Source of the DNA: Candidatus Levyibacteriota bacterium | Lineage (GTDB): Bacteria; Patescibacteriota; Microgenomatia; Levybacterales; UBA12049 | Direction of reading: 5' to 3' | Assembly (NCBI GenBank): GCA_016182185.1 | Contig: JACOXU010000001.1 | Location: 207,251-271,250, forward strand | Length of the DNA: 64,000 bases | Shown: piece after piece, positions 1-60,104 of the stretch | How the letters are laid out: every line of letters starts with the position of its first letter | Numbering within the stretch: the first letter of the stretch is position 1 | Position numbers and translations under genes: made by a program | Notes under the pieces: model-generated | What the model was told of the DNA's origin: nothing | What the model saw: only the letters and a program-made list of their open reading frames with translations | The model's database searches: none

Positions 1-264
1 AAGAATTTCAGGAAGCACAACCTGTTCTTTAAGAGAATGCCAGAGGATATTTACCTTAACAATTTTAAATTTTAAATTTTTCCCCGCTTCGCCCAAGCTT
101 CGCGGGGCGAGAATTTTTAATTCAACCTGATCGTAATCTTGACGTCTTACAAACAGAATATACTGATTTTTTCGATCTACTTGCGCAAGCTGATCAATCA
201 AGTTACGGGTATATCTCCCAACTCCTGTCTGATTCCATAACCTGCAATCAATTCCAATTTTCAT
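1..264 (-). CDS. GT4-family glycosyltransferase, N-terminal part only; the gene runs off the left edge of the window
   Basis: Not in the ORF track because there is no stop in the window. A minus-strand ATG at 262-264 overlaps the stop of 261..1160 (ATGA). The open frame to position 1 reads MKIGIDCRLWNQTGVGRYTRNLIDQLAQVDRKNQYILFV..., the typical GT4 N-terminus. Confidence 0.55.
   Translation of the reverse strand, partial: MKIGIDCRLWNQTGVGRYTRNLIDQLAQVDRKNQYILFVRRQDYDQVELKILAPRSLGEAGKNLKFKIVKVNILWHSLKEQVVLPEIL
61..81. repeat. heptanucleotide tandem repeat (AATTTTA)x3 inside a coding sequence
   Basis: aatttta aatttta aattttt, encoding KNLKFKI on the minus strand. Confidence 0.7.
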
Positions 265-8375: not shown

Positions 8376-9499
8376 ATACTTTCAAGTGCCTTCAATGTTT
8401 CCCTTGCTGTTTTTTCCCAAGAGAATTTTTTGACTTGTTCATAGCCTTTCGTAGCTAGTTCTCTACGAAGATCTAAGTCCTCAATAATTTTTTTTAAATT
8501 TTTCGTAATCTCTTCCACATTTTCAGGATTAAAATAAATAGCCGCTTGTCCCCCTGCTTCAGGCAGACTTGAGATATTACTGGTCAAAACCGGACATCCA
8601 TATTTCATGGCCTCAAGAATTGGTAATCCGAATCCCTCATAAAGACTAGGCAATACAAAACAAATGGCATTTTTGTAAAAATTTGGAAGCTCATCATCCG
8701 GAATTTCATGTAAAAATTTAACTCTTTTTTCTACATCAAATTTTTCAGGGGCCACAAGAATTTCTTCCCACATCCAGCCCTTTCTGCCTACAATTACTAA
8801 TTCAACATCTGTCTTAAGCTTTGAAAAAGCTTCTATAAGTCTTACAATATTTTTCCTTGGCTGAATTGTACCGACAAATAAAATGTAAGGGTTATTAATT
8901 CCGTATTTTTTCTTTAAATCTTCCATATTTTGAGATTTGAGATTTGAGATTTGAGATTTTATACCCGGATATGTAACTATGATTTTTTCGCTGGGTATTT
9001 TATATAAATTGATTATATCATCTTTGGAAGCTTGGCTTATGGTAAAAATTCGCTTGGCTTTTTTGATGGAATACCTTCCCCAGTATTTAAGTTGAATAAA
9101 GTCTTTCCCTTTAAAAAGTTGAGGGAAATGTAGATAAGAAAGGTCTAAAATTGAAATTGCGGACGGGATAGACGTAAAAAGAGGAAGATAATGGGTGGGT
9201 GTAAAAAAAATATCAGGTTTTGAATTTCCCAATATTAGCTCAAAAGACAAACCAAACATTGTCCATAATTTCCGGGGTTTTACTATTTTATAATTCCAAT
9301 TTTCTGATTCTTGAGGCATATCTGAAGCAGGATTGTCTGGAATATAAATAATGTAGTTATTTTTTTTGTCAATTTCATTAAAATTCAAAAGAAGCTCGAA
9401 GCAGTATTGTCCGCTTCCAACTCTGTTTGGCAAACCTGTTTTTGGATCGTATCCGAATCTCGACACAACAGCTTCAAAACCATTTATTCCAATTGTCAT
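8372..9499 (-). CDS. GT4-family glycosyltransferase; its interdomain linker contains a heptanucleotide repeat
   Basis: GT4 N-domain (MTIGINGFE...) and C-domain (ILFVGTIQPRKN...EAMKYGCPVLTSN). The linker KSQISNLKSQN is encoded by (TTTGAGA)x4 at 8929-8956. Confidence 0.8.
   Translation of the reverse strand: MTIGINGFEAVVSRFGYDPKTGLPNRVGSGQYCFELLLNFNEIDKKNNYIIYIPDNPASDMPQESENWNYKIVKPRKLWTMFGLSFELILGNSKPDIFFTPTHYLPLFTSIPSAISILDLSYLHFPQLFKGKDFIQLKYWGRYSIKKAKRIFTISQASKDDIINLYKIPSEKIIVTYPGIKSQISNLKSQNMEDLKKKYGINNPYILFVGTIQPRKNIVRLIEAFSKLKTDVELVIVGRKGWMWEEILVAPEKFDVEKRVKFLHEIPDDELPNFYKNAICFVLPSLYEGFGLPILEAMKYGCPVLTSNISSLPEAGGQAAIYFNPENVEEITKNLKKIIEDLDLRRELATKGYEQVKKFSWEKTARETLKALESI
8929..8960. repeat. 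heptanucleotide tandem repeat (TTTGAGA)x4.4 inside a GT4 coding sequence
   Basis: tttgaga x4 followed by tttt. The 7-nt unit is not a multiple of 3. Confidence 0.85.
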
Positions 9500-12102: not shown

Positions 12103-14166
12103 TTACCATTTTTTACTTATGTAGCCAAAAATAAGAAGACCTAGAACCAAAGAAACACTAATTAAACTTATCACAACTCCCCTATTGACCCAGTCTTGGG
12201 GGGTATAGTAGATCTCAAGCGTATAATCCCCGCCCTTGGGAAGAGTAAAGCTATTGAATAAATTACTATATTTATGGCTTTTTATACTAATCTCATTATT
12301 TCTTGCCACCCAATATTTATCAAAACTTTCAGAAAAAACAAGAACGTCGTTTTTCTGTGCATTTTTCACTGAAAGTTTATATTTCGTTGGATTAATAGAT
12401 TGAAAACTAATTTCTAAATTTTCCGACGGACTCCAAAAATGACCTCTTGGATCTAAGATTTCAAAAACTGTAATCTTCCCAAATCCCTTAACTTCCTTTA
12501 GCCAATTAATTTTTCTCACGTCTTCTATCGTTTTCAGATATAACGAATCAAAATATTTTCTGTCTTTTAAGAAAATCTCGTGTTGTGAATCAAAGGGGAC
12601 AATTACATATTTAACAGAAAGGTTTTGAAGCTCTACTTGTGATTTTTTATCATTCAGATATTTAACGACATCATAAGGATTATATTTATTTATAAATTCC
12701 TGGCCTGAAATTGAAGGATGAATATCTGATCGAAATCCAAATCTTTCATGTGTAGGGATCCAAAAAGTTCTGTAAAAAACTTTTTCTTTTGATAAGAAAT
12801 TTGCAAGTTTTACATATTCCTGAGGTAAACTTTGTTGCCTGAATGTTCCAGTCAACTCTCCAAAAAATGCAGGGCGGATTAAATACAATAGATATAAAGT
12901 TATAAATAACAAAAAAAAATTCTTTACATTTAGGATCTTGCCTTTGGTGGTTATTTGAAATTTGAAGTTAGAAATTTGAAATTTTAGCTGAGATTCCAGC
13001 AACTTATATAATTTCCAAATGCTAAATGGGATTAGTATTGAATATGAGAGAACAACTAGAAAATACCATTTAGTCGGATCTCTAAACATTACAAATCCCG
13101 GGATATGTTCAAAAAGCCATAAATATATTCCGCCAAATGGGTCATTTGCCCCTTTTGCCAAAAAGGAACCAATTAAGCCCAGGAATATAAAAAAAATTAT
13201 ATATTTTTTTTCATCTTGAGCTAATTTTTTGACAAAAAATAAACTTAAGTATGCAAGAATCGGTATTAGTAAAAACTCTGATTTCATAAAATAAACTTTA
13301 CCAAAAATATTTTCCGGCCAATATGGATGAAGCATTGATATTGTCTGTTCAAATTTTGCAAAACTAAGATATGGAACTATTTCCACCGATGAATAAGCCG
13401 GTCCAAGTTGTTGTATGGGATTTTGCTTAGTAACCAAAAGGGGAATAAGCCAAAAAGCATGAACCAAAAAAGCAATTACACCAGGAGGAACAAAAATAAC
13501 TATAAATTTCTTTATTAAGTCTATGCTATTCCTATTTGCGAGCTGAACAACTATGAAGTAAATCAATACAGAAACAATTGTCGCGTAAAATGCTCTAGGA
13601 TCAAATATTAATTGTAGGGCAATAATTAAACCGGTCAGTATTGATTTCTTAAGATCAAAGTGTTCTTCTTCAATAAGTTTTATGAAAATCCCCAAAACTA
13701 AAGGGGCGATTGCGTAGGCGATTGCAATTGCCATTTGCCCTCCCCCCACAATCATTAAAAGATATGTGTTAAAGATAAATACAAAAGGAGATAAAAAGGA
13801 AAGTTTATTCTTAGGCATCGTTATCTTAAACAAATACCAGGAGGATAAAAATGAAATCAGAATAAATGGCCAAAACCAAATTAATCTTTCTATAAATATC
13901 CATGGAAGATTAAAGTATCTGAATAACACAATCGTTGTGGTTGAAAAATAGGTATGAAGACCTAAAATAAAATTAATATTTATACCCGTATTGCTTAATA
14001 GATAACTCCATACATAGGGGAAGATGGTAAGGCTTTCTATTTGATTTTCAAATCTGAAATTCCAATCACCTGAGGAAATAACATCAAAAGAAAGCCAAGT
14101 TTTAAAAACGGCCAGAACGAGAAAAAAAATGAACAAATATGCAAGCTTTGTAATTATATTTTTCAA
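12103..14166 (-). CDS. large polytopic membrane protein, putative GT-C glycosyltransferase (687 aa) with an extracytoplasmic C-terminal domain
   Basis: At least 12 TM helices, an early-loop ISSGDW motif, a soluble roughly 250-aa C-terminal domain and a terminal TM anchor. It contains heptamer repeats at 12954-12987. Confidence 0.45.
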   Translation of the reverse strand: MKNIITKLAYLFIFFLVLAVFKTWLSFDVISSGDWNFRFENQIESLTIFPYVWSYLLSNTGININFILGLHTYFSTTTIVLFRYFNLPWIFIERLIWFWPFILISFLSSWYLFKITMPKNKLSFLSPFVFIFNTYLLMIVGGGQMAIAIAYAIAPLVLGIFIKLIEEEHFDLKKSILTGLIIALQLIFDPRAFYATIVSVLIYFIVVQLANRNSIDLIKKFIVIFVPPGVIAFLVHAFWLIPLLVTKQNPIQQLGPAYSSVEIVPYLSFAKFEQTISMLHPYWPENIFGKVYFMKSEFLLIPILAYLSLFFVKKLAQDEKKYIIFFIFLGLIGSFLAKGANDPFGGIYLWLFEHIPGFVMFRDPTKWYFLVVLSYSILIPFSIWKLYKLLESQLKFQISNFKFQITTKGKILNVKNFFLLFITLYLLYLIRPAFFGELTGTFRQQSLPQEYVKLANFLSKEKVFYRTFWIPTHERFGFRSDIHPSISGQEFINKYNPYDVVKYLNDKKSQVELQNLSVKYVIVPFDSQHEIFLKDRKYFDSLYLKTIEDVRKINWLKEVKGFGKITVFEILDPRGHFWSPSENLEISFQSINPTKYKLSVKNAQKNDVLVFSESFDKYWVARNNEISIKSHKYSNLFNSFTLPKGGDYTLEIYYTPQDWVNRGVVISLISVSLVLGLLIFGYISKKW
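12954..12987. repeat. imperfect heptanucleotide repeat (TTTGAAA-like)x4.7 inside the coding sequence of 12103..14166
   Basis: tttgaaa tttgaag ttagaaa tttgaaa ttttag, encoding KFQISNFKFQI. Confidence 0.7.
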
Positions 14167-30599: not shown

Positions 30600-30961
30600 A
30601 TTTTATTTCTTAAATCCCACAGATATTGTCCAAGACCTAAAACCATCAGACCGTAAACGATATTTCCCAGGTTCTCCGAAAGAGGGCTATCAATGGTTAA
30701 TATATTTATCACTGCGTTTACCCCAAGAAGAGTCATGGTAAAAATAACCGTATGTCTTGCCTTTAAATTAAAAAGAAGTAAAATTGCAATATAGAAAACG
30801 ATAGCTGAAATTATTGGATCACCAAACACTAAGTTTAAATATGGAACATTTTTTGAGAAATCAAAGAAGTAAAGTAAGAAAAGCAGGAATATAATTTTTG
30901 TAAAATTTCTTCGTATAAATTCAGAACTTTTGTTCCGTAAATAATCTAATCTATTTTTCAT
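30596..30961 (-). CDS. small 3-4-TM membrane protein; last gene of the long leftward operon
   Basis: A 121-aa hydrophobic ORF. It is convergent with the plus-strand gene and its stop codon overlaps at TTAG. Confidence 0.4.
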   Translation of the reverse strand: MKNRLDYLRNKSSEFIRRNFTKIIFLLFLLYFFDFSKNVPYLNLVFGDPIISAIVFYIAILLLFNLKARHTVIFTMTLLGVNAVINILTIDSPLSENLGNIVYGLMVLGLGQYLWDLRNKI

Positions 30962-33900
30962 TTTTAATCAAAACTATAGCTAGCGAACCTAAGACAATAA
31001 AAACGCTCGAAAATGTAATTAAAAATCCAATCCAGGTTATGATCTGAGGAAAATAAATTACTGCCAGAAAACTATTATCATCAAGATTATTCGGGTCGAT
31101 ATACCACGCGTTTGCGTAATTATTGGCCATGTAATGATTGGATTTTTCAAGTTCTCTGCCTTTAATAACTGTGTATATTTGCATTGTTGCTTGACAAACT
31201 ATATTTGTACAATCTTTAAGCGGCATTTTATTGGGCATTTTAAATAGCCTCCAACCCTCAGAGTAACCCTGTTTCAGTAAAATAAAAAATGGATTTTTTT
31301 GAGATTTTATATTAAATGCATAAAACGTAGGATTATGTTTTTGTAAATCAGGAAAAATTGTTGACGAAACAGGAATAACATCTCTCCTGGTTGGCAAAAG
31401 CATTAGGATTGGATCTTTTATCAACTGATGCATTTTTAATTTTTCAATATTTATAGATTGAGAGTTATTTCGCGGATCTGAATAATTAAATCCTAAAATA
31501 ATTTCTCTAGTCCTGTTTGGGGTCTCAAATATAATTCGTTGTTCTTCGTCTTTTTTGGGAGTCAGCACTTTAGATGCAACTGTTTGTTTCTTTTCACCCT
31601 GTAATACGGCAGTGACGCTTATTTTAGTATCTCTAGTCGAATTCTCTTTATATTTAAAGCTCAATAGATATTTCTGATTTGGTTTTATAAATGTAGGAGA
31701 AATATAAGAAGGATCGCCGTAGGACGCGATATCTACATTAGAAACGGAAAGCAAATTTTTATATTGAGGCGTATTAACGGAAACTTTATAAGTTCCCTTA
31801 TCTAGGGAAATCTTTCCGTAATTAAACCCGAGATTCGGATCAGAAGATTCTATGTCTTTATTTTCTTTCGTATTTTCTAACACAATGCTTGATTTGACAG
31901 AATTCTCATCAAAAATATTTGCATATTCAATGGGGTCTTCTGAGACTAGGTAAAAAGTGTATGAATCTAGTTTGGGAATATTAACTGTAAATTTTAAAGA
32001 ACTTTCCTGGGATGTCCGCCAAAAATTTTTATTTCCGAGAATCCGTAATTTTTCTATTTTTTCATATATAGATTCGAGCTTCTTATCAAATTCACTTGAA
32101 TGAGAAAGTTCATAGCTTAAATTTCTAGTTTCATTCGCCATTGCAGTCGTAAAACTTTCCATGTACTGATTGTAGGGATAATTAATCGGCTCATTAAGAA
32201 TCTCTATACTTCTGATCTTATAAATATCATCAAGTAGTATTTCTACATCAGCGAAAGTTTCGTTTATTACTTTTGCGTATGTGGACTGAGAAAACTTATT
32301 TTCTGTTTTTGATAAAATAAGTGATAAATTTTTTATTTCGTCTATCCTCCTTAGTGCGTATCCTGCCATAAGAGAAGTTTTCTTCTGGTTAGTTCCTGAA
32401 ATTTTAACATTTATTCTCTCCTTTAATCTTAGAAAGCTGTAAAAAGGGGATGTAGAAAGCATGTTTGATTTTTGAATAGGAAAACTTGGAGGAGAAATAT
32501 CAGTGTCGCAAAAATTGCACTCTGCTGTGATTACTGCTCTGTCAATTGGCGTTTTTATTTTTTCAGTATCGACTGTATTTGGAATTACAATTGTATTAAC
32601 GTTTAAAAGTTTTATAAATTTATCCAGATTCGTTACATCGTTTGTATAGGACACGGCTTGTTTTACATCAAGTGGTAAAAATTTGTAACCATCTCTTTTT
32701 GGCAACTCGTAAACAACCCATCTATCAAATATATAAACAGGCTTTATCCAAGGCGATTCTGAGAGTATATTCTCGTAATAACTTACTGGGAAATCATCTA
32801 GATTTGTTTGCACGTCTTTTCTGAATAAAATAAACTTAACATCGAGTAAATCAGCAATTGAAATGGTTTTTTTCTCATCTTTTGATTCAATTACCTTGTA
32901 AAACTGATCGACGATATCATACTGTTCCTTGCTTAAAAAGATGCTATCTGAAATGACAGATTTTTCTGTCAGAAGGTTTATAAAGGGAGTTAGGCTCCAA
33001 TAATTCCATGTATATTGATCCGCCCGTCCTCTTTGAAGCCTAGGGTAAAGCAGAATTTTGTTATTATCTTTTTTCTCATTAATCCACTTTTGGAAGTCAA
33101 AAGAATATTGAGGAGGACGAACCATTGTCGAAAGGGGCGTATCCCATTTGAAAAAAACCCCTGTAAAAAACGGGTAGCTATAGATACCTGTCAGAAGTAG
33201 AAAAAGTACCAACGTAAGTAACTTGATGATTTTTTTAAACAATTCTCTTTTAAAATTTATTTGAGATATTTTTTCAATAAACGTAGAAAAGGAATAAGAT
33301 ATCAAAACCGCATATCCAATCCAAAGCATATAGCCAAACTTGTAAAATGGGGTACGTATTGTGGCGAAACCGGGAATATTAAGTAGACTTGAGAATATAA
33401 AACCCAAAGGAGATCTGGTTCCGCTCATGAAAAATATTGTCAAAAGTAATAAACCAAAGAAAAAACCTATAAAAACTTTATCCTTACGATTTACTTTCTT
33501 TAGAATTAATGAAGTCAATACCATTAGAGACCAAACAAAACTAATAATAATAAAAAACGGATTTTTCAAAAGTATATTTGAATAAGGATGGTTTTCAATG
33601 TCGTACCAGCCCGAGAATCCTTGAAGTCTTAGTAAATTATCAAACGTCGCATATCTTGTAATTATCTCAACCCAGCTTGAAACACCCGCAACTCCTCCTG
33701 CTAAATTAAGTTCTGCTGTATAATTATTTTTTACATAATTACCAAAGGGTAAAATCCAATAAGCATTAAATAAAATAAAAAATATTATTAACACTGTGAT
33801 AAATTTACCGCAGGCGAAAAAATTTTTCCTTCTATGTTTTTGTGAAAATGAGATAAACCCAAAGTAGATAAAAAACCAGATCAGAGCTAGTCCTAAACCC

Positions 33901-34505
33901 GCAACTATTGGAATACCGACTCCTCCCGTACCATTAAAAATGGTAAGAAGAAATGCTCCAATTATACCCAGTAAAAGAAAATTATCTCCTTTTGTAAAAA
34001 TTTTTATTAAAAATGCAATAAGTATTGGGGTAACAATTACAAAGGAGATTTCTTGCTTTAAGGCCACAAACCAAGCTTGAAGCAAATAGTGATTTAGACT
34101 ATAAAAAATACTACCTGAGAGAAGAAAATATAAACTATATTTTCTTGGAAAATCTTTATTGTCTATAATTGTTTTTAAAAGATAAAACATCGATAAGCCT
34201 GGCAAAACAAACCAAATCATAAAGACTATTATTTGTCCAGTTCTAATGGGAACTCCTAAAAGTTGAAGAATTGCCTCCGGAAGATACGTAGCGATAGCCC
34301 CTATGTTAAATGATGCATCAGAGCCTAAATTCAATGTATCAGACCAGATAAAAATTCTATTAATAACTCTTGAAAGAGGATCTAGCGAATAACCCATATC
34401 ATGACCGGAAGCAATAAATCCCGGCTTAAACCAAAGTAGAGGAATTAAACCAATTAAAAAAAGGGGAAATAATGGAATAAGAGCTTTCAATCTATTGCGC
34501 CACAT
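30951..34505 (-). CDS. giant (1184 aa) polytopic membrane protein, AftD/arabinofuranosyltransferase-like GT-C architecture
   Basis: About 12 N-terminal TM helices with an early loop FIASGHDMGYSLDP, a 600-aa soluble domain and a C-terminal TM anchor (ITWIGFLITFSSVFIVLGSLAIVL). Confidence 0.45.
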   Translation of the reverse strand: MWRNRLKALIPLFPLFLIGLIPLLWFKPGFIASGHDMGYSLDPLSRVINRIFIWSDTLNLGSDASFNIGAIATYLPEAILQLLGVPIRTGQIIVFMIWFVLPGLSMFYLLKTIIDNKDFPRKYSLYFLLSGSIFYSLNHYLLQAWFVALKQEISFVIVTPILIAFLIKIFTKGDNFLLLGIIGAFLLTIFNGTGGVGIPIVAGLGLALIWFFIYFGFISFSQKHRRKNFFACGKFITVLIIFFILFNAYWILPFGNYVKNNYTAELNLAGGVAGVSSWVEIITRYATFDNLLRLQGFSGWYDIENHPYSNILLKNPFFIIISFVWSLMVLTSLILKKVNRKDKVFIGFFFGLLLLTIFFMSGTRSPLGFIFSSLLNIPGFATIRTPFYKFGYMLWIGYAVLISYSFSTFIEKISQINFKRELFKKIIKLLTLVLFLLLTGIYSYPFFTGVFFKWDTPLSTMVRPPQYSFDFQKWINEKKDNNKILLYPRLQRGRADQYTWNYWSLTPFINLLTEKSVISDSIFLSKEQYDIVDQFYKVIESKDEKKTISIADLLDVKFILFRKDVQTNLDDFPVSYYENILSESPWIKPVYIFDRWVVYELPKRDGYKFLPLDVKQAVSYTNDVTNLDKFIKLLNVNTIVIPNTVDTEKIKTPIDRAVITAECNFCDTDISPPSFPIQKSNMLSTSPFYSFLRLKERINVKISGTNQKKTSLMAGYALRRIDEIKNLSLILSKTENKFSQSTYAKVINETFADVEILLDDIYKIRSIEILNEPINYPYNQYMESFTTAMANETRNLSYELSHSSEFDKKLESIYEKIEKLRILGNKNFWRTSQESSLKFTVNIPKLDSYTFYLVSEDPIEYANIFDENSVKSSIVLENTKENKDIESSDPNLGFNYGKISLDKGTYKVSVNTPQYKNLLSVSNVDIASYGDPSYISPTFIKPNQKYLLSFKYKENSTRDTKISVTAVLQGEKKQTVASKVLTPKKDEEQRIIFETPNRTREIILGFNYSDPRNNSQSINIEKLKMHQLIKDPILMLLPTRRDVIPVSSTIFPDLQKHNPTFYAFNIKSQKNPFFILLKQGYSEGWRLFKMPNKMPLKDCTNIVCQATMQIYTVIKGRELEKSNHYMANNYANAWYIDPNNLDDNSFLAVIYFPQIITWIGFLITFSSVFIVLGSLAIVLIKNEK

Positions 34506-52902: not shown

Positions 52903-54033
52903 TTAAGCTATAAAATAACCTCTAAGAAAGAAGGATGTTAATATGATTAATAATATTGATAATATTGTCAATAATAATAGTTTATATACAGTTTTTTTAA
53001 TTCTAGCCAGTAATATAAAAATGGGAAAAACAACAAGCGTATATCTTGGCATGGAAGATAACGTCCCTGAAAATGTTGGAACTATAATAGCAAATAAACT
53101 AAACAATACATAGGAAAACCTAATGTTTTTTCTAAATAACATTAGCAAAAGTAAAAATGCAGAAAAAATAATAATTTCCAAGAGAGCGATAAGATAATTA
53201 TGTGTTAGAGGATTGAGGGTAGTCAATATTTTCACATATCTAAAAAATAATTGTGGCAGTAAAATTATTTCCCCCCCGCTTCTTTCTGCCCCGAAAGCAG
53301 GCTGAGTATGAATGAATAAGAAGGAATCTTGGTAGTTAACCCATAAGTAAATCATATAAGCAAGTACTCCAGATGAAGAAATTAGAGTAAAAGAAAGAAA
53401 ATTTAAGAGATATGACTTTAAATTACTCACATTTTTAATTCTAGAAAGATAAAATTCTAGTAAAAGAGGAATCAAAAGAAAAATTCCGATTATTCTTGTT
53501 GCTGAAGCAAATCCAATTAAAATACTCGTCAAAGTAAATTTTTGCCTACGCATGAAATAAAAAGACGAAAAGACAAAGGCAAGAAATAAAGATTCAGTAT
53601 ATATACTGCCTAAAAAAAATGCTGTTGGGAAAAACAACAAGAAAATAAGAGTCCACTTTACGGTATCAGTTTTAAAATCCATTGAAGCTAACTTATATAA
53701 AAATATTAGAGAGATTAATAAACTAACATGAACAATAAATAACGCGCTGAGAATATAATTTCCCATAAAGAAAAGAGAAAAAAATTTAATTAATAACGGA
53801 AATAAGGGGAAAAATGCCTGTTGATAAATACCGTATCCATATTTAGCAATGTTTAGATAATGCTCTCCGTCAAAATTCGCCCATGGAATAAGACCTGTAA
53901 ATTGAGGGTTTAAAATAATATATTTACTGAAATATTCAACAACATAAAGAACGAGTTTCCAAATAACAAATAATATAAAAATAAATAAAAATAAATCCCT
54001 ATTGCCCTTTAATAACTTCTTCATATACGGCAT
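52903..54033 (-). CDS. polytopic membrane protein, PIG-V/DUF2029-like mannosyltransferase-type GT-C; start uncertain
   Basis: WANFDGEHYLNIAKYGY...AFFPLFPLL resembles PIG-V-type GT-C motifs. The track ORF start (54195) would overlap the upstream GT4 by 197 nt. An internal ATG at 54033 (or 54024) is preferred. Confidence 0.4.
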   Translation of the reverse strand: MPYMKKLLKGNRDLFLFIFILFVIWKLVLYVVEYFSKYIILNPQFTGLIPWANFDGEHYLNIAKYGYGIYQQAFFPLFPLLIKFFSLFFMGNYILSALFIVHVSLLISLIFLYKLASMDFKTDTVKWTLIFLLFFPTAFFLGSIYTESLFLAFVFSSFYFMRRQKFTLTSILIGFASATRIIGIFLLIPLLLEFYLSRIKNVSNLKSYLLNFLSFTLISSSGVLAYMIYLWVNYQDSFLFIHTQPAFGAERSGGEIILLPQLFFRYVKILTTLNPLTHNYLIALLEIIIFSAFLLLLMLFRKNIRFSYVLFSLFAIIVPTFSGTLSSMPRYTLVVFPIFILLARIKKTVYKLLLLTILSILLIILTSFFLRGYFIA

Positions 54034-55066
54034 TCGTTTCTTTAGCTGTTTTTTGCCAGGAAAATTTTTTGGACTGAATTGATCCTTTTTCTGAAAGTTC
54101 TTTCTGTAAATTTGTATTCGAAAAAACCTCTTCAATTCCCTCTCTAATACTATTGGCATCATAGGGATCAACATAGAAAACAGCATCTTCTGCAACTTCG
54201 GGAATTGATCCCTCTCTTGAGGTTACTACCGGACAACCGCAAGACATTGCCTCAAGAATCGGCAGTCCAAATCCCTCATACAAGCTCGGCATTGCAAAAA
54301 CTGATGCGTAATTATAAAGAGAAACTAAATCTTTTTGATCCACAAATCCAAGCCTAATAAATCTGCCATCATTTCTAATCATTTCTTGAATTTTTCTAAG
54401 ATCCTGATTCCATGGATTATCAATGTCGTAATCTTTAGATATTAAAGCTTCTCCAATCATTACGATCTTAAGGTTCGTTTTTTTAATCGCTTCGATTAAC
54501 CGAGGTAAATTCTTATTCCATGTCACATCACCTACATAAAGAACAAAACTTTCCGGCAGGCTGTATTTCTTTCTCAAATTCTGAATTTTGAATTCTGAAT
54601 TTTGAATTCTTTTGAATTCTTCTCCCGCAGCTAAATATACAACACTAATTTTATTTTCATCAATTCCGGCGAATTTGCTTATATCTCTCTTTGATGACTC
54701 AGAATCTGTAATAATAGTTTCTACCTTATTCAGCGCTTTTTTTTGTATTTGCCACCTCAATTCTCCTTTTATGCCTCTTGGAAAATAATTGGGAAAAACA
54801 AGAGGAGTTAAATCATGAACAGTGACAATTGTCTTAAATTTTTTAAAAAAGGGCAGCGTCAAAAAAAAGGGTTCAAAATAAGGGTAGTGGACTAAATCTA
54901 GTTTTTGGAGTAATTTTTCTCCTCGAGTAAAAAAAATATACTTATTTTCTGGATAGTACTTCAATAGAGCCTTTTTAAGATTTTTTAAATAAAAGCCCGT
55001 ACCCCTAACTCTGTGCTGTAAATAATTTTTCTTTTCCAATGGAGAGATATCGATACCAATTATCAT
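53999..55066 (-). CDS. GT4-family glycosyltransferase; its interdomain linker contains a heptamer/14-mer repeat
   Basis: MIIGIDISPL...EAMSCGCPVVTSREGSIPE. The linker EEFKRIQNSEFKIQNLRKK is encoded by (AATTCTGAATTTTG)x2 and related copies at 54577-54620. Confidence 0.8.
   Translation of the reverse strand: MIIGIDISPLEKKNYLQHRVRGTGFYLKNLKKALLKYYPENKYIFFTRGEKLLQKLDLVHYPYFEPFFLTLPFFKKFKTIVTVHDLTPLVFPNYFPRGIKGELRWQIQKKALNKVETIITDSESSKRDISKFAGIDENKISVVYLAAGEEFKRIQNSEFKIQNLRKKYSLPESFVLYVGDVTWNKNLPRLIEAIKKTNLKIVMIGEALISKDYDIDNPWNQDLRKIQEMIRNDGRFIRLGFVDQKDLVSLYNYASVFAMPSLYEGFGLPILEAMSCGCPVVTSREGSIPEVAEDAVFYVDPYDANSIREGIEEVFSNTNLQKELSEKGSIQSKKFSWQKTAKETNAVYEEVIKGQ
54577..54620. repeat. 14-nt tandem repeat (AATTCTGAATTTTG)x2 plus degenerate copies inside a GT4 coding sequence
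   Basis: Two exact 14-mers at 54577-54604, followed by aattcttttg aattcttc. Confidence 0.8.
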
Positions 55067-56697
55067 ATTATCTTATATCGAAAATTTTTGAAAATTATTA
55101 TCGTAAATATTACGAAAGATATCAATGAAAGAGCTTCAGCAAAATTTCTGACCGAAGTATTTCCAAATTTTAGTTCAACAACATGTTTCCCTCTTGGAAC
55201 TAAAAATTTAATTAAACCGTTTTCAGTACGTCCCAGAGCTGAAGGTCTATTATCTATAGTAACATACCAGCCGGGAAAATAAGCAGTGTTTACAATAATT
55301 TCGCTTTTTTCTTTTATCTTTATTTCAAATAAGTATCTCGATGGGTTTAATTTTTTTATGAAAATTTCTCCGTGATTTTTATTAATAGATATCTTTTTAT
55401 CACTTCTGGAAAATGATCCATTGATCCAATTTGTGTTAAATAAATTCCCTGGACTATTTGTCCCGTCCATAAAATTTGATCGGGTTAAATAGTAATTATC
55501 TTCTCTATCAAAATAATGAGCTGGTCGAGCATAACCTATCCCGAGCAGGAATACTAAAAAAATTATGATTCCGGCTAGTATTTTTGAATGATATACAGAA
55601 AATAGGCTTCCAGCCATGAACGACGCTGTAAGCATCACGATACTTAAAAATCGCCATGGAAACTGAAAATAGTTCATAAGCGGGAAAAAATCCCAAATAG
55701 AGATAGAGAACTTTGTTATCAATAAAACTGATAAAAAAAACCAAATTAAGAAAAACAAGAGGATTTTAAATTTTTTATCTTTCCTCTTCAGCAAGGGGAC
55801 AAGTAAAACAATACTTGCTAAAACCGCAAAAATATTTGCTATTCCAATTTGAACTGACATTTCGTTTCCTCCCCCCGTTCCGAAAAAGCCGGAACCCCAC
55901 GATGGAATAATGAGCTGGTAAATCTCGGCAAAGTTTCTTTTGACATCAAAAATTTGAAGACCGGTAACGTATTTTAGTTCAAAAATTGCCGGAATCCAAA
56001 AAATAGACGCTAACCCTAGTCCGAGAAAAATAACGGCTACAGAATTTTTTAAACTTGTAATTATATTATTACCTAAATAACTTAGTAATAACATATAAGA
56101 CAGGACGAATGGAAAAAAGGCAAAGGCAAGTATATTGTGTGCAAATATTATTAAAGCCAAAATTAAACCGGAAAATGCAATAAAGATTTTTTCATCTCTA
56201 AATATTGCTTTTGTTACAGCCCATAAAAAAACGGGAAATAATCCCAAAGCCCAAACCTCACCGACTGATCCTCTAATATAGATGTCTACAAAAAAATATG
56301 GTGAAAATGAATAGAAAATTGCGCCAACTACTCCTCCTAACTTACCCCAAAATTCTTTACTCCATAAATAAAAAGATATAGCACCAAAAACATAGGCCAT
56401 GAACATATTCAACTTAAAGGCATTAATAAAGCTAATTCCAAGCAAATGCAAGAACGATGCAATATAGTTAGGTAAGGGGTAAACATAGTTAAAAAGTGGT
56501 ACTCCCAAACCGAAATTTAAGTCCGGTGCCCAACGGGGATATAAATTTCCATCTGCTAAAACTTTATAAAATTCATAAAAACGCACAATATGATACTCAC
56601 CGTCATGGGTTGGAATGAGACCGGAATAAAGCAAAGGGAATCCTCCTATCAAAGGAAAAATAATTAACAAAACCCATACTAGATATTTCTTGACCAT
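55063..56697 (-). CDS. polytopic membrane protein, uncharacterised GT-C-like family (paralog of 60120..61763)
   Basis: Shared N-terminal motif PTHDGEYHIVRF...NLYPRWAPDLNFGLGVPLF.YVYPLPNY. The C-terminal soluble domain has YFPGWYV...VPRGKHVVE, followed by a TM anchor. Confidence 0.45.
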   Translation of the reverse strand: MVKKYLVWVLLIIFPLIGGFPLLYSGLIPTHDGEYHIVRFYEFYKVLADGNLYPRWAPDLNFGLGVPLFNYVYPLPNYIASFLHLLGISFINAFKLNMFMAYVFGAISFYLWSKEFWGKLGGVVGAIFYSFSPYFFVDIYIRGSVGEVWALGLFPVFLWAVTKAIFRDEKIFIAFSGLILALIIFAHNILAFAFFPFVLSYMLLLSYLGNNIITSLKNSVAVIFLGLGLASIFWIPAIFELKYVTGLQIFDVKRNFAEIYQLIIPSWGSGFFGTGGGNEMSVQIGIANIFAVLASIVLLVPLLKRKDKKFKILLFFLIWFFLSVLLITKFSISIWDFFPLMNYFQFPWRFLSIVMLTASFMAGSLFSVYHSKILAGIIIFLVFLLGIGYARPAHYFDREDNYYLTRSNFMDGTNSPGNLFNTNWINGSFSRSDKKISINKNHGEIFIKKLNPSRYLFEIKIKEKSEIIVNTAYFPGWYVTIDNRPSALGRTENGLIKFLVPRGKHVVELKFGNTSVRNFAEALSLISFVIFTIIIFKNFRYKII

Positions 56698-57809
56698 AGA
56701 ATTTTTTTGGAATAAAAGAAAATTAGTAAGATTAACGATGGGAAAAATAGAAATAATGTTTTTAATACTGGTGTTATCTCAAAATGAGTTCCTAAAAACA
56801 TAAAAGGTATATAACGCAAGAGAAGACCGAAAGATAAAGATATAGATAAATAAAAAATGATCTTTTTTTCAGGAATCAAAGCTGTAAACACTAAGAACCA
56901 TATTGCATACCACGGATATATCTCCTCCCTTAACGGGGACAGAAGAAAAATTAGAAACATTGATATTGCTGAAAAATAAATAAATTTTTCAATGTTTAAA
57001 TTTTTATTCTTAATTATTTGAAAGATTCCATAAAAATAAATTGGAATTAAAAATAATGTAGAATATTTTATCAGTACTGAAAGTATTATTGTTAATAAAC
57101 CACTCCAAATTTTTTTCTTTATTAGGAAAAACAATGAAGCAATTGCCAAAAACATCATCACAGTATCATTATGTCCTGAAACCATTGTTTCAATTATAAC
57201 TAGAGGATTTAAGCCAAAAATTATTAATGATATATTTTTTTTTGAAATTTTCCAAATGAAATATAAAGTCCCTATGTAAAAAAGAATATTTAAAAATTTA
57301 AAGCTAAATAGAATTATAAGAAAATTTCCAAAACCCAAGGAAAATGGTATTACGGACAGCAAAATCCAAAATGGTCCATAAAGAGCAATCTTATTTGCGG
57401 CATGTGTAAAAGACAAAAGTGGATCATTTATAAATTCAATTGGCATAATAATATAGGGGTTTTCATGATAAAAGAAAGCAACCTTGGCTGTTGAAATATA
57501 ATTAAAAATATCATATGAAAGCATTGCTGGATATGAAAAAAGTAAGGAAAGAGTTGTAATTGTTATTAAAACTACTACTCCCCTTTTGTTAAGTAACTTA
57601 TTCCTTCCAAACTGAATAAATGATATATAAAATATAAAAAAAATGATGATACCTATTAGATATATTACTGTTGTGATTTCTCTATTATTAAATGCAAAAC
57701 CTGTATACAAATTACTTAAATATATTAAGTTAGGATCTACAAATAGATATGAAAATATGCTAAACGACAGTAGAAAGAGTCCGTATAAAATGAGGAATAA
57801 TTTTTTCAT
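56679..57809 (-). CDS. polytopic membrane protein, putative GT-C glycosyltransferase (376 aa)
   Basis: At least 10 TM helices and no soluble domain. Hypothetical. Confidence 0.35.
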   Translation of the reverse strand: MKKLFLILYGLFLLSFSIFSYLFVDPNLIYLSNLYTGFAFNNREITTVIYLIGIIIFFIFYISFIQFGRNKLLNKRGVVVLITITTLSLLFSYPAMLSYDIFNYISTAKVAFFYHENPYIIMPIEFINDPLLSFTHAANKIALYGPFWILLSVIPFSLGFGNFLIILFSFKFLNILFYIGTLYFIWKISKKNISLIIFGLNPLVIIETMVSGHNDTVMMFLAIASLFFLIKKKIWSGLLTIILSVLIKYSTLFLIPIYFYGIFQIIKNKNLNIEKFIYFSAISMFLIFLLSPLREEIYPWYAIWFLVFTALIPEKKIIFYLSISLSFGLLLRYIPFMFLGTHFEITPVLKTLFLFFPSLILLIFFYSKKILWSRNI

Positions 57810-58333
57810 AAATTTTTCCTTCGAATAGATATAGACATTTCTATATCTTTCTTAAGATAGATTTTGGTTGAAAAAGATTTCTCCGGCCTCCAATAAACTT
57901 TTTCCGGAATTCCTTCTCTCAACATCAATAACGCTTCTATATGCTTTAGGCTCGCCTCTTTTAATAATGTCCGTTTTGAATCAATGCTCTCTTTATTAGC
58001 TTTCGAATTGTCAAGATTTGATCGAATATTATAAAAATATTCGTCAGATTTTTTTAGCGCTTTTTGCCCTAATAAAAACTGGTCATATTCAAAAAGCGTT
58101 TTTGCTTCAACTAGATATTTATCTGCTTGTTTAAGATTATAATTAAACTGCCCAAATTTACCAAAATACCAGTATTTTAAGATTTTATCCTTAATAAGAT
58201 TGATTTTGTAAAAAGGGCTTCCTGGCATAAATGATGGGTATGGAAGTACATAAGAAGATTGAGCAAAAATTGGACTATAGAAAAAAAATAAAAACATGAT
58301 AGAAAGGAGAAAAGATCGAAGAATCCACCTCAT
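57806..58333 (-). CDS. small secreted protein, paralog B of 28304..28846 (LPYPxxxPxxPxYK motif)
   Basis: Signal peptide (MRWILRSFLLSIMFLFFFYSPIFAQS), then YVLPYPSFMPGSPFYKINLIKDKIL. Its start codon sits inside the (TTTTGAA)x4 repeat. Confidence 0.55.
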   Translation of the reverse strand: MRWILRSFLLSIMFLFFFYSPIFAQSSYVLPYPSFMPGSPFYKINLIKDKILKYWYFGKFGQFNYNLKQADKYLVEAKTLFEYDQFLLGQKALKKSDEYFYNIRSNLDNSKANKESIDSKRTLLKEASLKHIEALLMLREGIPEKVYWRPEKSFSTKIYLKKDIEMSISIRRKNL

Positions 58334-59325
58334 TTTGAATTTTGAATTTTGAATTTTGAATTATTTTTGCGCCATTCCCATGCGGTTTTAACAATTGTTT
58401 CAAGATCAGAATATTTTGGCTCAAACCCCAATTCCTTTTTAATCTTTGTCGGATCCGCAATTAAAACATCTACATCCCCTGATCTTCTTGAGGAGTTTTT
58501 TACCTTAAAATCAATTCCTGATATTTTTTTTACCATTTCAAGTACTTCTTTATTTGAATATCCTTTTCCGGTTCCAACGTTGTAATAGTAATCATCTGGA
58601 TTTTCTTTTAGTTTTTGAAGCGTTAAAAGATGAGATTCAACTAAATCAATCACATGAATATAATCCCTAATACATGTTCCATCAGGGGTATCATAATCAT
58701 TTCCAAAAAGACTAAATTCGGAGTTTCCTAAGGTTGCTTTAATTGCTAGAGGAATTATATGAGTTTCAGGATCATGATCTTCTCCCATATTTCCATCAAG
58801 AGAGGCGCCAGCTGCATTAAAATAGCGAAGACTTGCAAAGCTCAATCCAAAGATTTTATTATACCAAGCAAGAATTTTCTCAACCATTAATTTACTTTCT
58901 CCATAAGGGTTAGTGGGAAGAGTCTGGTGATCCTCAGATATAGGAGTTTTAATTGGATTCCCATAAACTCCGGCCGTAGAAGAAAAAACTAAAGATTTAA
59001 TATTGTGCCTTACAGCTTGCTCGATCAAATTAAGAGATCCAAGAGTATTGTTTTGAAAATACAATTTGGGATTTTCCATAGATTCTGCCATAGATATATA
59101 TCCTGCGAAATGGATCACGGCATCGAACTTATCGGTGGAAAATGTATTTTCTAGTATTTCAGGATTTAAAAGGTCTCCTTGAACAAACTTTGCTTTCGTA
59201 TCAATAGCTTCTCTTTGACCGCGCTCCAAACTATCAAGCACAACCACATCATCTCCATTTTTTAGAAGTCGCTTAACCATAAAGCTTCCAATATAACCTG
59301 CCCCACCCGTAACCAAGATTTTCAT
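58330..59325 (-). CDS. galE: UDP-glucose 4-epimerase
   Basis: MKILVTGGAGYIGSFMVKRL...AVIHFAGY...FSSTAGVYG...YGESK matches GalE throughout. The C-terminus NNSKFKIQNSK is encoded by a heptamer repeat. Confidence 0.8.
   Translation of the reverse strand: MKILVTGGAGYIGSFMVKRLLKNGDDVVVLDSLERGQREAIDTKAKFVQGDLLNPEILENTFSTDKFDAVIHFAGYISMAESMENPKLYFQNNTLGSLNLIEQAVRHNIKSLVFSSTAGVYGNPIKTPISEDHQTLPTNPYGESKLMVEKILAWYNKIFGLSFASLRYFNAAGASLDGNMGEDHDPETHIIPLAIKATLGNSEFSLFGNDYDTPDGTCIRDYIHVIDLVESHLLTLQKLKENPDDYYYNVGTGKGYSNKEVLEMVKKISGIDFKVKNSSRRSGDVDVLIADPTKIKKELGFEPKYSDLETIVKTAWEWRKNNSKFKIQNSK
58333..58362. repeat. heptanucleotide tandem repeat (TTTTGAA)x4 spanning the galE stop codon and the next gene's start
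   Basis: Four exact copies at 58333-58360. It encodes the GalE C-terminus KFKIQNSK-stop and overlaps the ATG of 57806..58333. Confidence 0.85.
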
Positions 59326-60104
59326 AATTTTAAGTACTTAATATATGATACAGGAAATCGAAGAGATGAGAAAAGAGAGAAGACAAATCCTGGCCACAAA
59401 TCCATAAAACCTTTATGCCTTAAATAAGTAAAAAGAAACCAATAAACAGGTTTAAAAGTTAAGGAGGCGCCTGCAAAAATTATTTTGTAAAAAATATTTT
59501 TATTTTTTAGCTTTTCTTTAATTTGCGATGCAATAAGATCAGTATATCTATCCCACTTTAAAAGATAATCGTTAAAATCTTTATATGGATAATGTAATAA
59601 CGGGTTTTTAAGATATGTGACTTCTCCTTCAACTTCTGCTTGTTCATGAACATCCTTCTGAGGAAGCCTTCCTTTTCCCCTTTTATACAGTCTTAAAGTA
59701 TAGTCAGGATACTGCCCGCCCTTCATAAGAAATCTACCCAAAAACCAATTTTTTCTCGGAATCCAATATCCATTAACATGACTGACTATTGATGACTGAC
59801 TATTGATGACTGACTTAATCTCTTTTCTAAGTCCTTTGGAGACCACTTCATCTGCATCAAGTTGCAAGATCCAATCAGAAGTTGCCATATCTATAGCCAT
59901 TTGCTTATTGATATGAAAAATAGGTTTATTTGTTGTGATTTTAATTTTGGCTCCGAATTGCTTCGCCTTATCAACTGTCTTGTCACTTGAAGCTCCATCA
60001 ACAACAACAATCTCATCTGCCAAACCATCTACGCTTTCAAGACAAGCTGGAAGATTCTTTTCCTCATTGTAAGTTGCCAAAACCACAGACAAAGTTGCCT
60101 TCAT
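59322..60104 (-). CDS. GT2-family glycosyltransferase; contains a 14-bp tandem repeat
   Basis: LSVVLATYNEEKNL...IVVVDGASSDKT...LDADEVV. The segment KSVINSQSSIVSHVNG is encoded by (ATGACTGACTATTG)x2.7 at 59779-59818. Confidence 0.75.
   Translation of the reverse strand: MKATLSVVLATYNEEKNLPACLESVDGLADEIVVVDGASSDKTVDKAKQFGAKIKITTNKPIFHINKQMAIDMATSDWILQLDADEVVSKGLRKEIKSVINSQSSIVSHVNGYWIPRKNWFLGRFLMKGGQYPDYTLRLYKRGKGRLPQKDVHEQAEVEGEVTYLKNPLLHYPYKDFNDYLLKWDRYTDLIASQIKEKLKNKNIFYKIIFAGASLTFKPVYWFLFTYLRHKGFMDLWPGFVFSLFSSLRFPVSYIKYLKL
59779..59818. repeat. 14-nt tandem repeat (ATGACTGACTATTG)x2.7 inside a GT2 coding sequence
   Basis: atgactgactattg atgactgactattg atgactgact. Confidence 0.85.

What the first reader, a model, noticed from the sequence alone, without database searches (positions are those of the whole stretch)
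58333..58362. (TTTTGAA)x4 spans the galE stop codon and the overlapping start codon of the downstream secreted-protein gene
The four exact heptamers encode the last residues of GalE (KFKIQNSK), its TGA stop and the ATG of 57806..58333 (ATGA overlap). A change of one repeat unit would extend or alter the GalE C-terminus and at the same time change translational coupling of the downstream gene. This placement at a gene junction is unusual.
Basis: seen in the sequence. Interest (0 to 1): 0.55.

Follow-up and report, generated by a model that had tools for sequence, protein, structure and literature searches.

The report
Variable heptamer repeat at galE junction
A four-copy 7-base repeat lying on the stop/start overlap between a sugar-epimerase gene and a secreted-protein gene of an uncultivated Levybacteria (CPR) bacterium is a real, fast-mutating repeat: near-identical relatives carry 2, 3 or 4 copies, which leaves the two genes separate, fuses them, or gives the epimerase a wrong-frame tail.

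Summary
Window 58332..58362 is a perfect period-7 array (4.4 copies). On the coding (-) strand, AA(TTCAAAA)4 encodes the GalE tail NSKFKIQNSK and runs into an ATGA stop/start overlap with a DUF5667-like signal-peptide gene. Perfect heptamer arrays of 4 or more copies occur twice in the window, against none in 300 simulations. Orthologs 64-73% identical keep a heptamer array at this junction, but the unit differs by lineage (TTCAAAA, TCTCAAA, ACTCAAA, AAAAATG). In three independent lineages, contigs differing by 0-3 substitutions per ~6 kb differ by whole units, and that is their only indel. The resulting products match the frame logic: separate genes, a ~500-aa GalE::DUF5667 fusion, or a GalE with an out-of-frame tail. 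The best reading is a slipped-strand simple-sequence-repeat switch (contingency-locus type) with three translational states. It is one of several period-7/14 arrays in the same envelope-glycosylation cluster. The closest known case is the heptanucleotide repeat in Neisseria pglE. Not shown here: variation in this exact strain, the switching rate, reversibility, or any phenotype.

The parts
58332..58362 (-). Perfect heptanucleotide array, (TTCAAAA)x4 on the coding strand. It encodes the last 10 residues of GalE (NSKFKIQNSK).
58330..58333 (-). ATGA stop/start overlap: GalE TGA at 58330-58332 and the downstream ATG at 58331-58333.
   Evidence: The same overlap is present in L001-L004.
58330..59325 (-). 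GalE-like UDP-glucose 4-epimerase, 331 aa. It has the TGGAGYIG NAD-binding motif and the YGESK catalytic motif.
   Evidence: Pfam Epimerase 3.5e-58. Identical to an NCBI protein named GalE from a Candidatus Levybacteria MAG.
57806..58333 (-). 175-aa DUF5667-like protein with an N-terminal signal-peptide-like segment (MRWILRSFLLSIMFLFFFYSPIFA|QSSYVLPYPS). Its start is coupled to the GalE stop.
   Evidence: DUF5667 at 25.2 bits, below the 27-bit cut-off; 606 homologs sharing the A[QE]SSYVLPYPS motif.
58275..58332 (-). Alternative frame that GalE would read if the unit number were 0, 3 or 6. It gives a 19-residue out-of-frame tail NEVDSSIFSPFYHVFIFFL, with the stop at 58275-58277, about 56 nt inside the downstream ORF.
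   Evidence: (ORF 58275..58460). Natural equivalents are P0127 and P0130.
56679..57809 (-). Next gene in the overlap chain (4-nt overlap). Its orthologs in related loci carry the MptA_B-family GT-C domain.
   Evidence: PF26314 on the syntenic gene. No Pfam hit for the window copy itself.
59778..59815 (-). Sister array: perfect 14-mer x2.7 inside the GT2 gene 59322..60104 (peptide KSVINSQSSIVSH). One unit more or less truncates GT2 to 105/110 aa.
   Evidence: Orthologs carry different heptamer arrays at the same protein position.
8929..8959 (-). Sister array: perfect (TCTCAAA)x4.4 in the interdomain loop of GT4 8372..9499 (KSQISNLKSQN). One unit more or less truncates the enzyme to 192/203 aa.
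   Evidence: The loop is hypervariable in orthologs.
54577..54610 (-). Sister array: perfect 14-mer x2.4 (TTCAAAA/TTCAGAA units) in the interdomain loop of GT4 53999..55066. One unit more or less truncates the enzyme to 174/168 aa.
12953..12984 (-). Imperfect heptamer array (TTTCAAA-like, x4.6, 84% matches) in the 687-aa membrane ORF 12103..14166 (KFQISNFKFQI).
1577..1613 (-). Decayed heptamer array (x5.3, 76% matches) in GT4 1157..2353 (IKLKVKSEKLKVK).

Best explanation
The array is a hypermutable heptanucleotide simple-sequence repeat placed on the galE / DUF5667-gene stop-start overlap. It behaves as a three-state translational switch of the contingency-locus type. Replication slippage adds or removes whole 7-nt units (inferred). 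Because 7 is not a multiple of 3, the unit number n sets the frame in which GalE-translating ribosomes reach the junction AA(TTCAAAA)nTGAGG. With n = 1, 4 or 7 (the window has 4), GalE stops at a TGA that overlaps the ATG; the downstream gene, which has no Shine-Dalgarno motif, can then be started by termination-reinitiation and yields a protein with its own N-terminal signal peptide. With n = 2 or 5, GalE is fused in frame to the downstream protein (about 500 aa), so the signal peptide becomes internal. With n = 0, 3 or 6, GalE gains a roughly 19-residue wrong-frame tail and terminates about 56 nt inside the downstream ORF, which should uncouple or occlude its start. Shown here: the repeat, the predicted ORF outcomes, and all three states as dominant alleles in natural near-clonal populations of three related lineages. 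Inferred: slippage as the mechanism, the effect on expression and export, and that the switching is selected for (bet-hedging of envelope glycosylation, together with the sister period-7/14 arrays in the GT2 and GT4 genes of the same cluster).
For: The repeat is real and non-random. Lineage A: L011 has 2 units and a 500-aa fusion P0126 (..NSKFK-MIRFF..AQSNYILPYPS); L012 has 3 units and a 347-aa product P0127; L013-L017 have 4 units. These contigs differ by 2-3 substitutions in about 6 kb and the array is the only internal indel. Lineage B (unit AAAAATG): L020 has one unit fewer than L021/L022 and encodes the 499-aa fusion P0140, with 0 mismatches in 5,980 nt. Lineage C: L018/L019 have 3 units (354 aa) against 4 units in the seven fetched contigs L143-L149 (one search reports 13 contigs carrying this 331-aa protein), with 0-2 mismatches per ~5,990 nt and the unit as the only indel. 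The same allele was recovered in independent assemblies, and the arrays (14-28 nt) are far shorter than the assembly k-mers named in the records (k127, k141). An array at the same junction persists across orthologs of 64-73% identity with lineage-specific units, and fixed copy numbers of 1 and 4 preserve the frame. Only 5 of 52 window genes have an SD-like motif, 14 gene pairs overlap by 4 nt, and none of the 20 nt upstream of the downstream ATG is SD-like. Modelling n = 0..7 reproduces the three states. The sister arrays all have period 7 or 14, all sit in glycosylation genes, and all truncate the enzyme on a change of one unit. In homologous loci every perfect tandem array found has period 7. 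Precedent: phase variation of Neisseria pglE is controlled by a heptanucleotide repeat (PMC7157529).
Against: The copy number is low (2-4), whereas many well-studied phase-variable tracts are longer, so the rate may be modest. All variation seen is between consensus assemblies of different samples, not within one clone, so rate and reversibility are unknown. No second genome of the window's own strain exists. No expression, export or phenotype data are available. The GT2 array did not vary among the lineage A contigs, and variation in the GT4 loop is only hinted at. The control clusters without arrays had only two members each.
Confidence: 0.7

Rival explanations
1. A hypermutable but functionally neutral or slightly deleterious microsatellite. 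Slippage-prone A-rich heptamers arise in an AT-rich (33% GC) reduced genome and persist only at structurally permissive sites such as a dispensable C-terminal tail or an interdomain loop. The fused and extended alleles would then be tolerated mutants, not a selected switch.
For: The tail is dispensable: 30 of 120 homologs have no more than 4 residues after W-x-W-H, and 12 have a single unit. Arrays occur in loops and tails. Many lineages carry decayed arrays. Copy number is low. No phenotype is known.
Against: A tolerance-only model predicts frame-neutral periods (3, 6, 9) in coding DNA. Instead, every perfect array in the window and in the homologous loci has period 7 or 14. Arrays recur at the same three or more sites with different units in different lineages. 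Out-of-frame alleles became the dominant (assembled) allele in at least four sample-lineage combinations. All hosts are envelope-glycosylation genes, the class classically under phase variation.
Confidence: 0.25
2. An RNA-level cis element. The G-poor, A-rich, unstructured repeat would serve as an SD-independent translation-initiation leader for the downstream gene, with repetition incidental to that role.
For: The array lies directly upstream of the downstream ATG in every lineage. The organism rarely uses SD motifs (5 of 52 genes). The mean unpaired probability around the ATG rises from 0.42-0.43 (n = 0-1) to 0.52-0.55 (n = 2-5) in folding models. The perfect GT4 array at 8929 is also followed directly by an in-frame ATG.
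Against: Some lineages manage with one unit or no tail. The same kind of array lies deep inside GT2, GT4 and membrane-protein ORFs with no start codon nearby. The modelled accessibility gain is small. This idea does not explain the unit-number polymorphism. It is compatible with the best explanation rather than an alternative to it.
Confidence: 0.1
3. A conserved functional C-terminal peptide of GalE (NSKFKIQNSK), for example a localisation or interaction tag, with the DNA repetition merely a by-product.
For: Seven of 120 homologs end in exactly NSKFKIQNSK and 13 in close variants.
Against: The identity is explained by identical DNA units. Other lineages encode unrelated peptides from other units at the same place (ISNLKSQISK, ISNLKTQNSK, KLKMKNEK). 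Many orthologs lack the tail. Near-identical strains differ in tail length and frame.
Confidence: 0.03
4. An assembly or sequencing artefact. The copy-number differences between contigs would be errors.
For: All variants come from short-read metagenome assemblies. No raw reads were inspected.
Against: The arrays are 14-28 nt, much shorter than reads and than the k-mers named in the records (k127, k141). The differences are always whole 7-nt units. The 3-unit allele of lineage C was recovered on three contigs, of which two (different samples) were read here, and the 4-unit alleles in seven or more assemblies by different pipelines. Flanks are otherwise identical.
Confidence: 0.02

Closest known systems
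Neisseria meningitidis/gonorrhoeae pglE (protein O-glycosylation galactosyltransferase), whose phase variation is controlled by a heptanucleotide repeat
   Same: A 7-nt unit, an A/C-rich and G-poor repeat inside coding sequence, located in a glycosylation pathway, one of several switchable genes of one glycan module, and frame-shifting by whole units (PMC7157529).
   Different: The pglE repeat lies within the gene and gives simple ON/OFF switching. Here the array sits on a stop/start overlap between two separate conserved genes and gives three states (separate, fused, extended). The host is an uncultivated environmental CPR bacterium, not a host-adapted pathogen. Copy number is lower (2-4). 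Switching rate and phenotype are unknown.
Haemophilus influenzae contingency loci (tetranucleotide repeats in LOS genes; heptanucleotide repeats at hmw1A/hmw2A and in a TonB-dependent receptor gene)
   Same: Slipped-strand simple-sequence repeats with units that are not multiples of 3, associated with surface structures. Unit number differs among strains (for example (AACAACC)1-7 and (TGAAAGA)16-23) (PMC2651432).
   Different: The hmw heptamers act in promoters on transcription. Tracts are usually much longer. None is described at a stop/start overlap in that paper.
Campylobacter jejuni poly-G tracts in capsule, LOS and flagellar-glycosylation clusters (multi-locus phasotypes)
   Same: Many hypermutable tracts concentrated in surface-glycan gene clusters, giving combinatorial states (abstracts of PMC8437040 and PMC13317227). 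From my own knowledge, some tracts split or merge adjacent annotated ORFs.
   Different: Homopolymer tracts, not heptamers. From my own knowledge, the split ORFs there are halves of one gene, whereas here two independently conserved genes are joined or separated.
Translational coupling through overlapping stop/start codons (ATGA), termination-reinitiation
   Same: A 4-nt ATGA overlap, no SD upstream, and 14 such overlaps in the window.
   Different: Ordinary coupled junctions are genetically stable. Here a mutable repeat sets whether the upstream ribosome terminates at the overlap at all.

Membership tests
SSR-mediated phase-variable (contingency) locus, slipped-strand type | A perfect tandem repeat, with a unit length not a multiple of 3, within or abutting coding sequence | tested here: met
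   58332..58362, period 7, 4.4 copies, 100% matches. None expected by chance.
SSR-mediated phase-variable (contingency) locus, slipped-strand type | Unit-number polymorphism among otherwise near-identical genomes (localised hypermutation) | tested here: met
   Met in three orthologous lineages: 2/3/4 units with 2-3 SNPs per 6 kb; one unit of difference with 0 SNPs in 5,980 nt; 3 versus 4 units with 0-2 SNPs in ~5,990 nt. Not testable for the window's own strain, which has a single genome.
SSR-mediated phase-variable (contingency) locus, slipped-strand type | A change in unit number changes the reading frame or expression of a gene | tested here: met
   Met in silico for n = 0..7 and in natural alleles: P0126/P0140 are fusions, P0127/P0130 are extensions. 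The effect on protein level was not measured.
SSR-mediated phase-variable (contingency) locus, slipped-strand type | High-frequency, reversible switching within a clonal population | not testable with these tools
   This needs read-level allele counts or culture. Only consensus contigs were available.
SSR-mediated phase-variable (contingency) locus, slipped-strand type | A phenotypic consequence for a surface or interaction trait | not testable with these tools
   The gene context is envelope glycosylation, but there are no phenotype data.
GalE / extended SDR UDP-hexose 4-epimerase (upstream gene) | Epimerase-family domain, N-terminal GxxGxxG NAD-binding motif, catalytic YxxxK | tested here: met
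   Pfam PF01370 at 3.5e-58 over residues 3-251. TGGAGYIG and YGESK are present in the translation. Substrate specificity was not tested.
DUF5667 (PF18915) (downstream gene) | A score above the Pfam gathering threshold | tested here: inconclusive
   25.2 bits against a cut-off of 27. Many orthologs carry a precomputed PF18915 hit, and one is named a DUF5667 domain-containing protein.
Translationally coupled overlapping gene pair | Stop codon of the upstream gene overlapping the start codon of the downstream gene, with no independent SD | tested here: met
   ATGA at 58330..58333. No SD-like motif in the 20 nt upstream. Actual coupling was not measured.
Programmed -1 ribosomal frameshift site | A slippery heptamer X XXY YYZ in the zero frame, followed by a stimulatory structure | tested here: not met
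   No in-frame window of AAT TCA AAA TTC AAA ATT CAA AAT TCA AAA TGA fits X XXY YYZ (read). The region is weakly structured (MFE about -16 kcal/mol for 156 nt).

The most novel reading that the evidence does not exclude
Levybacteria and related Microgenomates may maintain, by second-order selection, a lineage-wide set of heptamer-only simple-sequence repeats at fixed sites of one envelope-glycosylation cluster: a GT2 loop, GT4 interdomain loops, a GT-C loop and the galE/DUF5667 junction. Together these would form a combinatorial 'phasotype' system in free-living or episymbiotic groundwater CPR bacteria. Within it, the galE junction would be a true three-state switch that toggles between soluble GalE plus an exported DUF5667 protein, a membrane-tethered GalE::DUF5667 fusion, and an uncoupled state.
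Probability: 0.35. Interest if true: 0.78.

Novelty: new variant of a known kind. Interest (0 to 1): 0.62.

Why it matters
Slipped-strand phase variation is regarded mainly as a strategy of host-adapted pathogens. I found no report of it in Patescibacteria/CPR in the searched library. Here natural populations of uncultivated groundwater Levybacteria carry alternative unit numbers on otherwise identical backgrounds, in the genes that build their cell envelope glycans. That would imply strong fluctuating selection on the surface, from phages, hosts or partners. It also gives a simple handle, read-level allele counting, for studying population dynamics of organisms that cannot be cultured. Placing the repeat on a stop/start overlap, so that two conserved genes are reversibly separated, fused or uncoupled, extends the usual ON/OFF logic. 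There is a practical consequence too: gene callers annotate these loci inconsistently (500-aa 'epimerases', and 140-, 157- or 188-aa versions of the downstream gene), so the repeat state should be considered when annotating such MAGs.

Tried and rejected
1. Exact-protein look-ups of the window's GalE and downstream protein found no contig on record, so strain-level variation of this exact locus could not be examined.
A longer anchor should have been used. The first attempt was rejected for syntax.
3. Searching with the downstream protein for ~500-aa fusions found none among the top 120 representatives, because fusions cluster with GalE. The N-termini were still informative.
4. Cluster analysis of the GT4 gave only two possible truncated alleles, P0271 and P0280, which may be contig-end effects. 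I do not claim variation there.
5. A programmed ribosomal frameshift was rejected: there is no X XXY YYZ heptamer in frame.
6. I considered a Rho-utilisation-like reading (a YC dinucleotide every 7 nt, G-poor). I dropped it because the AAAAATG and AAATTTA-type units in other lineages lack C.
7. I considered transposon target-site-duplication footprints as the source of 7-nt units. Nothing in the data supports this.
8. Literature searches for simple-sequence repeats or phase variation in Patescibacteria returned nothing relevant.
Full report
**1. The observation**

The window is AT-rich (32.9% GC) and almost all its genes lie on the minus strand. At 58332..58362 Tandem Repeats Finder reports a period-7 array of 4.4 copies with 100% matches. 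On the + strand this is A(TTTTGAA)4TT. On the coding strand it reads AA(TTCAAAA)4TGA, that is AAT TCA AAA TTC AAA ATT CAA AAT TCA AAA TGA = NSKFKIQNSK*. This is the C-terminus of a 331-aa ORF (58330..59325) that matches the Pfam Epimerase family at 3.5e-58. That ORF is identical to an NCBI protein named UDP-glucose 4-epimerase GalE from a Candidatus Levybacteria MAG (P0001, 617-kb contig).

The TGA overlaps the ATG (ATGA) of a 175-aa ORF (57806..58333). This ORF has a signal-peptide-like N-terminus and a sub-threshold DUF5667 match. Perfect period-7 arrays of 4 or more copies occur twice in the window, against zero in 300 second-order Markov simulations.

**2. It is one of a group**

The highest-scoring tandem repeats of the window all have period 7 or 14 and all lie in minus-strand ORFs:
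- (TCTCAAA)x4.4 at 8929..8959, in the interdomain loop of a GT4 enzyme.
- A 14-mer x2.4 made of TTCAAAA/TTCAGAA units at 54577..54610, in the equivalent loop of another GT4.
- A 14-mer x2.7 at 59778..59815, in the GT2 gene immediately upstream of galE.
- Imperfect heptamer arrays at 12953..12984 (a membrane ORF) and 1577..1613 (a GT4).

One unit more or less truncates each host enzyme: 375 to 192/203 aa, 355 to 174/168 aa, 260 to 105/110 aa, and 687 to 402/475 aa. All are intact in this genome. The window is one large envelope-glycosylation cluster: GT-C enzymes of the AftD-, PMT_2- and YfhO/PTPS-related types, GT2, GT4 and a flippase.

**3. Orthologs: a conserved repeat with changing units**

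Among the 120 best GalE homologs the next relative is only 73-74% identical. Even so, 7 end in exactly NSKFKIQNSK and 13 in close variants. A further 13 end in KLKMKNEK-type tails, 12 in a single-unit tail (NSK/SSK), 10 in short FKI-type tails and 35 in other tails, and 30 have no tail.

The DNA of five orthologous loci shows why:
- L001 (71% identity) has AA(TTCAAAA)4TGA.
- L002 (67%) has (TCTCAAA)4 then ATGA, giving the tail ISNLKSQISK.
- L004 (64%) has (TCTCAAA)2(ACTCAAA)2 then ATGA.
- L003 (64%) has a single TTCAAAA unit then TGA.
- L005 has AAATTTA/AAATTAA units with a stop inside the array.

In L001-L004 the same signal-peptide gene follows with the ATGA overlap. So what is conserved is a heptamer array at this junction, not a peptide. 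Units are homogeneous within a lineage and differ between lineages, which is the pattern of repeat turnover. The fixed copy numbers seen, 1 and 4, differ by three units (21 nt) and keep the frame.

**4. Copy number varies among near-identical genomes**

Members of 90%-identity protein clusters revealed length variants, and their DNA was fetched.

- **Lineage A.** L011 has 2 units, and GalE is fused in frame to the downstream protein (P0126, 500 aa..NSKFK-MIRFFRIATFFF..AQSNYILPYPS). L012 has 3 units, giving a 347-aa GalE with a wrong-frame tail (P0127). L013-L017, from five other assemblies, have 4 units. Over about 6 kb these contigs differ by 2-3 substitutions, and the array is the only internal indel.
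- **Lineage B, unit AAAAATG.** L020 has one unit fewer than L021/L022 and encodes a 499-aa fusion (P0140). There are 0 mismatches in 5,980 aligned bases.
- **Lineage C.** L018/L019 have 3 units (354 aa), against 4 units in the seven fetched contigs L143-L149 (one search reports 13 contigs carrying this 331-aa protein). There are 0-2 mismatches per ~5,990 nt, and one unit is the only indel. Sample accession numbers that are numerically close carry different dominant alleles.

P0110 (..KLKMKNVRQGRIRLWRKK) looks like a further out-of-frame allele in another lineage. Ten clusters without arrays showed no fusion or extension alleles, but they have only two members each.

An assembly artefact is unlikely. 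The arrays are 14-28 nt, the differences are whole units, and the same alleles recur in independent assemblies.

**5. How it most likely works**

For the window sequence AA(TTCAAAA)nTGAGG, modelling n = 0..7 gives three states:
- n = 1, 4, 7: GalE stops at the TGA that overlaps the ATG.
- n = 2, 5: a GalE::DUF5667 fusion of about 501-508 aa.
- n = 0, 3, 6: a 19-residue wrong-frame tail (NEVDSSIFSPFYHVFIFFL), with termination about 56 nt inside the downstream ORF.

Only 5 of 52 genes in the window have an SD-like motif, 14 gene pairs overlap by 4 nt, and the downstream gene has no SD. Its translation therefore plausibly depends on termination-reinitiation at the overlap, and the other two states would abolish that. 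This step is inferred, not shown. In the fused state the signal peptide is internal; whether it then acts as a membrane anchor is speculation.

Slipped-strand mispairing as the mutational mechanism is inferred from the whole-unit differences. From general knowledge, loops of 7 nt fall outside the range that MutS-dependent repair handles efficiently, but this was not tested here.

**6. The wider pattern**

In homologous loci every perfect tandem array found (periods 5-14 tested) has period 7. The GT2 gene next to galE carries a different array at the same protein position in each lineage, between ..ADE.V.PEL.KEI and NGYW.PRKNWFLGR:
- Window: 14-mer x2.7.
- L015: (AAATTGG)x4.7.
- L038: (ATATCAA)x5.
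- L002: (GCCACAA)x4.1.
- L003: (AAATTAG)x2.7.

(AATACTT)x3 recurs in a YfhO-like membrane protein of L001, L003 and L004. The GT4 loop that hosts the 8929 array is hypervariable in orthologs and filled with heptamer-type peptides.

The downstream-protein family (606 homologs at E <= 1e-10) often starts inside an array (MKNEKF...). In other cases it was called through one (MAQAKFKIQNLKFKM...), including decayed arrays. A pure tolerance model would predict frame-neutral periods in coding DNA. The exclusive use of 7 and 14, at fixed sites, in surface-glycan genes, argues for selection on switchability. A heptamer-specific mutational bias is not excluded. Why the period is 7 remains unexplained.

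**7. Comparison with known systems**

The closest case is Neisseria pglE, where "PV is controlled by a heptanucleotide repeat" in a protein-glycosylation galactosyltransferase that belongs to a multi-gene switchable module (PMC7157529). Heptanucleotide repeats are also known in Haemophilus influenzae (PMC2651432), and multi-locus phasotypes are known in Campylobacter glycan clusters.

Four things differ here. The repeat sits on a stop/start overlap between two independently conserved genes. It gives three states rather than ON/OFF. Copy number is low. The organism is an environmental CPR bacterium, for which I found no description of simple-sequence-repeat switching. I therefore class it as a new variant of a known kind.

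**8. Limits**

No variation data exist for the window's own strain. There is no within-population frequency, rate or reversibility, and no expression or phenotype data. The metagenome census scan failed. I estimate about 0.9 that this is a genuinely hypermutable repeat producing the three ORF states in nature. I give 0.7 to the best explanation as submitted, which also includes the uncoupling effects and the reading that switching is selected; that last, adaptive step is the least certain part.

Noticed in passing
window 59778..59815; L015 520-552; L038 2612-2646; L002 2434-2462; L003 2526-2544: The GT2 gene beside galE has a second fixed repeat hot spot. At the same protein position each lineage carries a different period-7/14 array (KSVINSQSSIVSH, KIGNWKLEIGNS, DIKYQISNIKYQ, GHKPQATSHK, KLEIRNS). 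No copy-number variation was seen among the lineage A contigs.
   Followed up: partly
window 8929..8959 and 54577..54610 (GT4 genes 8372..9499 and 53999..55066): Perfect (TCTCAAA)x4.4 and 14-mer x2.4 arrays lie in the GT4 interdomain loops, and one unit more or less truncates the enzymes. The loop is hypervariable and rich in heptamer-type peptides in 120 orthologs. Two possible truncated alleles (P0271, P0280) were not verified at the DNA level.
   Followed up: partly
L001 779-797, L003 6254-6274, L004 6276-6295: (AATACTT)x~3, encoding KYLILNT(F), recurs at the same position of a YfhO/PTPS-related GT-C membrane protein in three lineages. The window's homologs lack it.
   Followed up: no
L001 2960-2985: (GTCTTAA)x3.7 lies in no ORF of 80 aa or more and ends about 15 nt upstream of the galE start. 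It may be a promoter- or leader-located heptamer array.
   Followed up: no
whole window (52 minus-strand genes): Only 5 of 52 genes have an SD-like motif within 20 nt upstream, and 14 gene pairs overlap by exactly 4 nt. This suggests largely SD-independent or coupled translation in this organism.
   Followed up: partly
window 30951..34505 (-): A 1184-aa protein combines a GT-C AftD-like N-terminal domain with an internal weak DUF5667 match. This hints that DUF5667 is an extracytoplasmic accessory module of GT-C glycosyltransferases, which bears on the role of the small DUF5667-like gene after galE.
   Followed up: no
L004 (CAYPUE010000001.1), L002 (QZIP01000039.1) and P0026/P0197: Records labelled 'uncultured Gammaproteobacteria', 'Candidatus Parcubacteria' and 'Candidatus Pacearchaeota archaeon' carry this Levybacteria-type galE/DUF5667 synteny or very similar proteins. 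The taxonomic labels are probably binning or classification errors.
   Followed up: no
L015-L017 3451-4017; L012 3588-4010; L018 3540-4013; L143 3547-4020: Gene callers annotate the downstream gene inconsistently around the array: 188 aa when started inside galE through the array, or 140 or 157 aa when started from later ATGs. L143 is a 4-unit contig and L018 a 3-unit contig, yet both received the 157-aa call, so the call depends on the pipeline as well as the repeat state. This is an annotation pitfall for these MAGs.
   Followed up: partly
window 61..108: (AATTTTA)x2.9 is followed directly by a G+C-rich inverted repeat (CCCCGCTTCGCCCAAGCTTCGCGGGGCG). It looks terminator-like and was not examined.
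   Followed up: no
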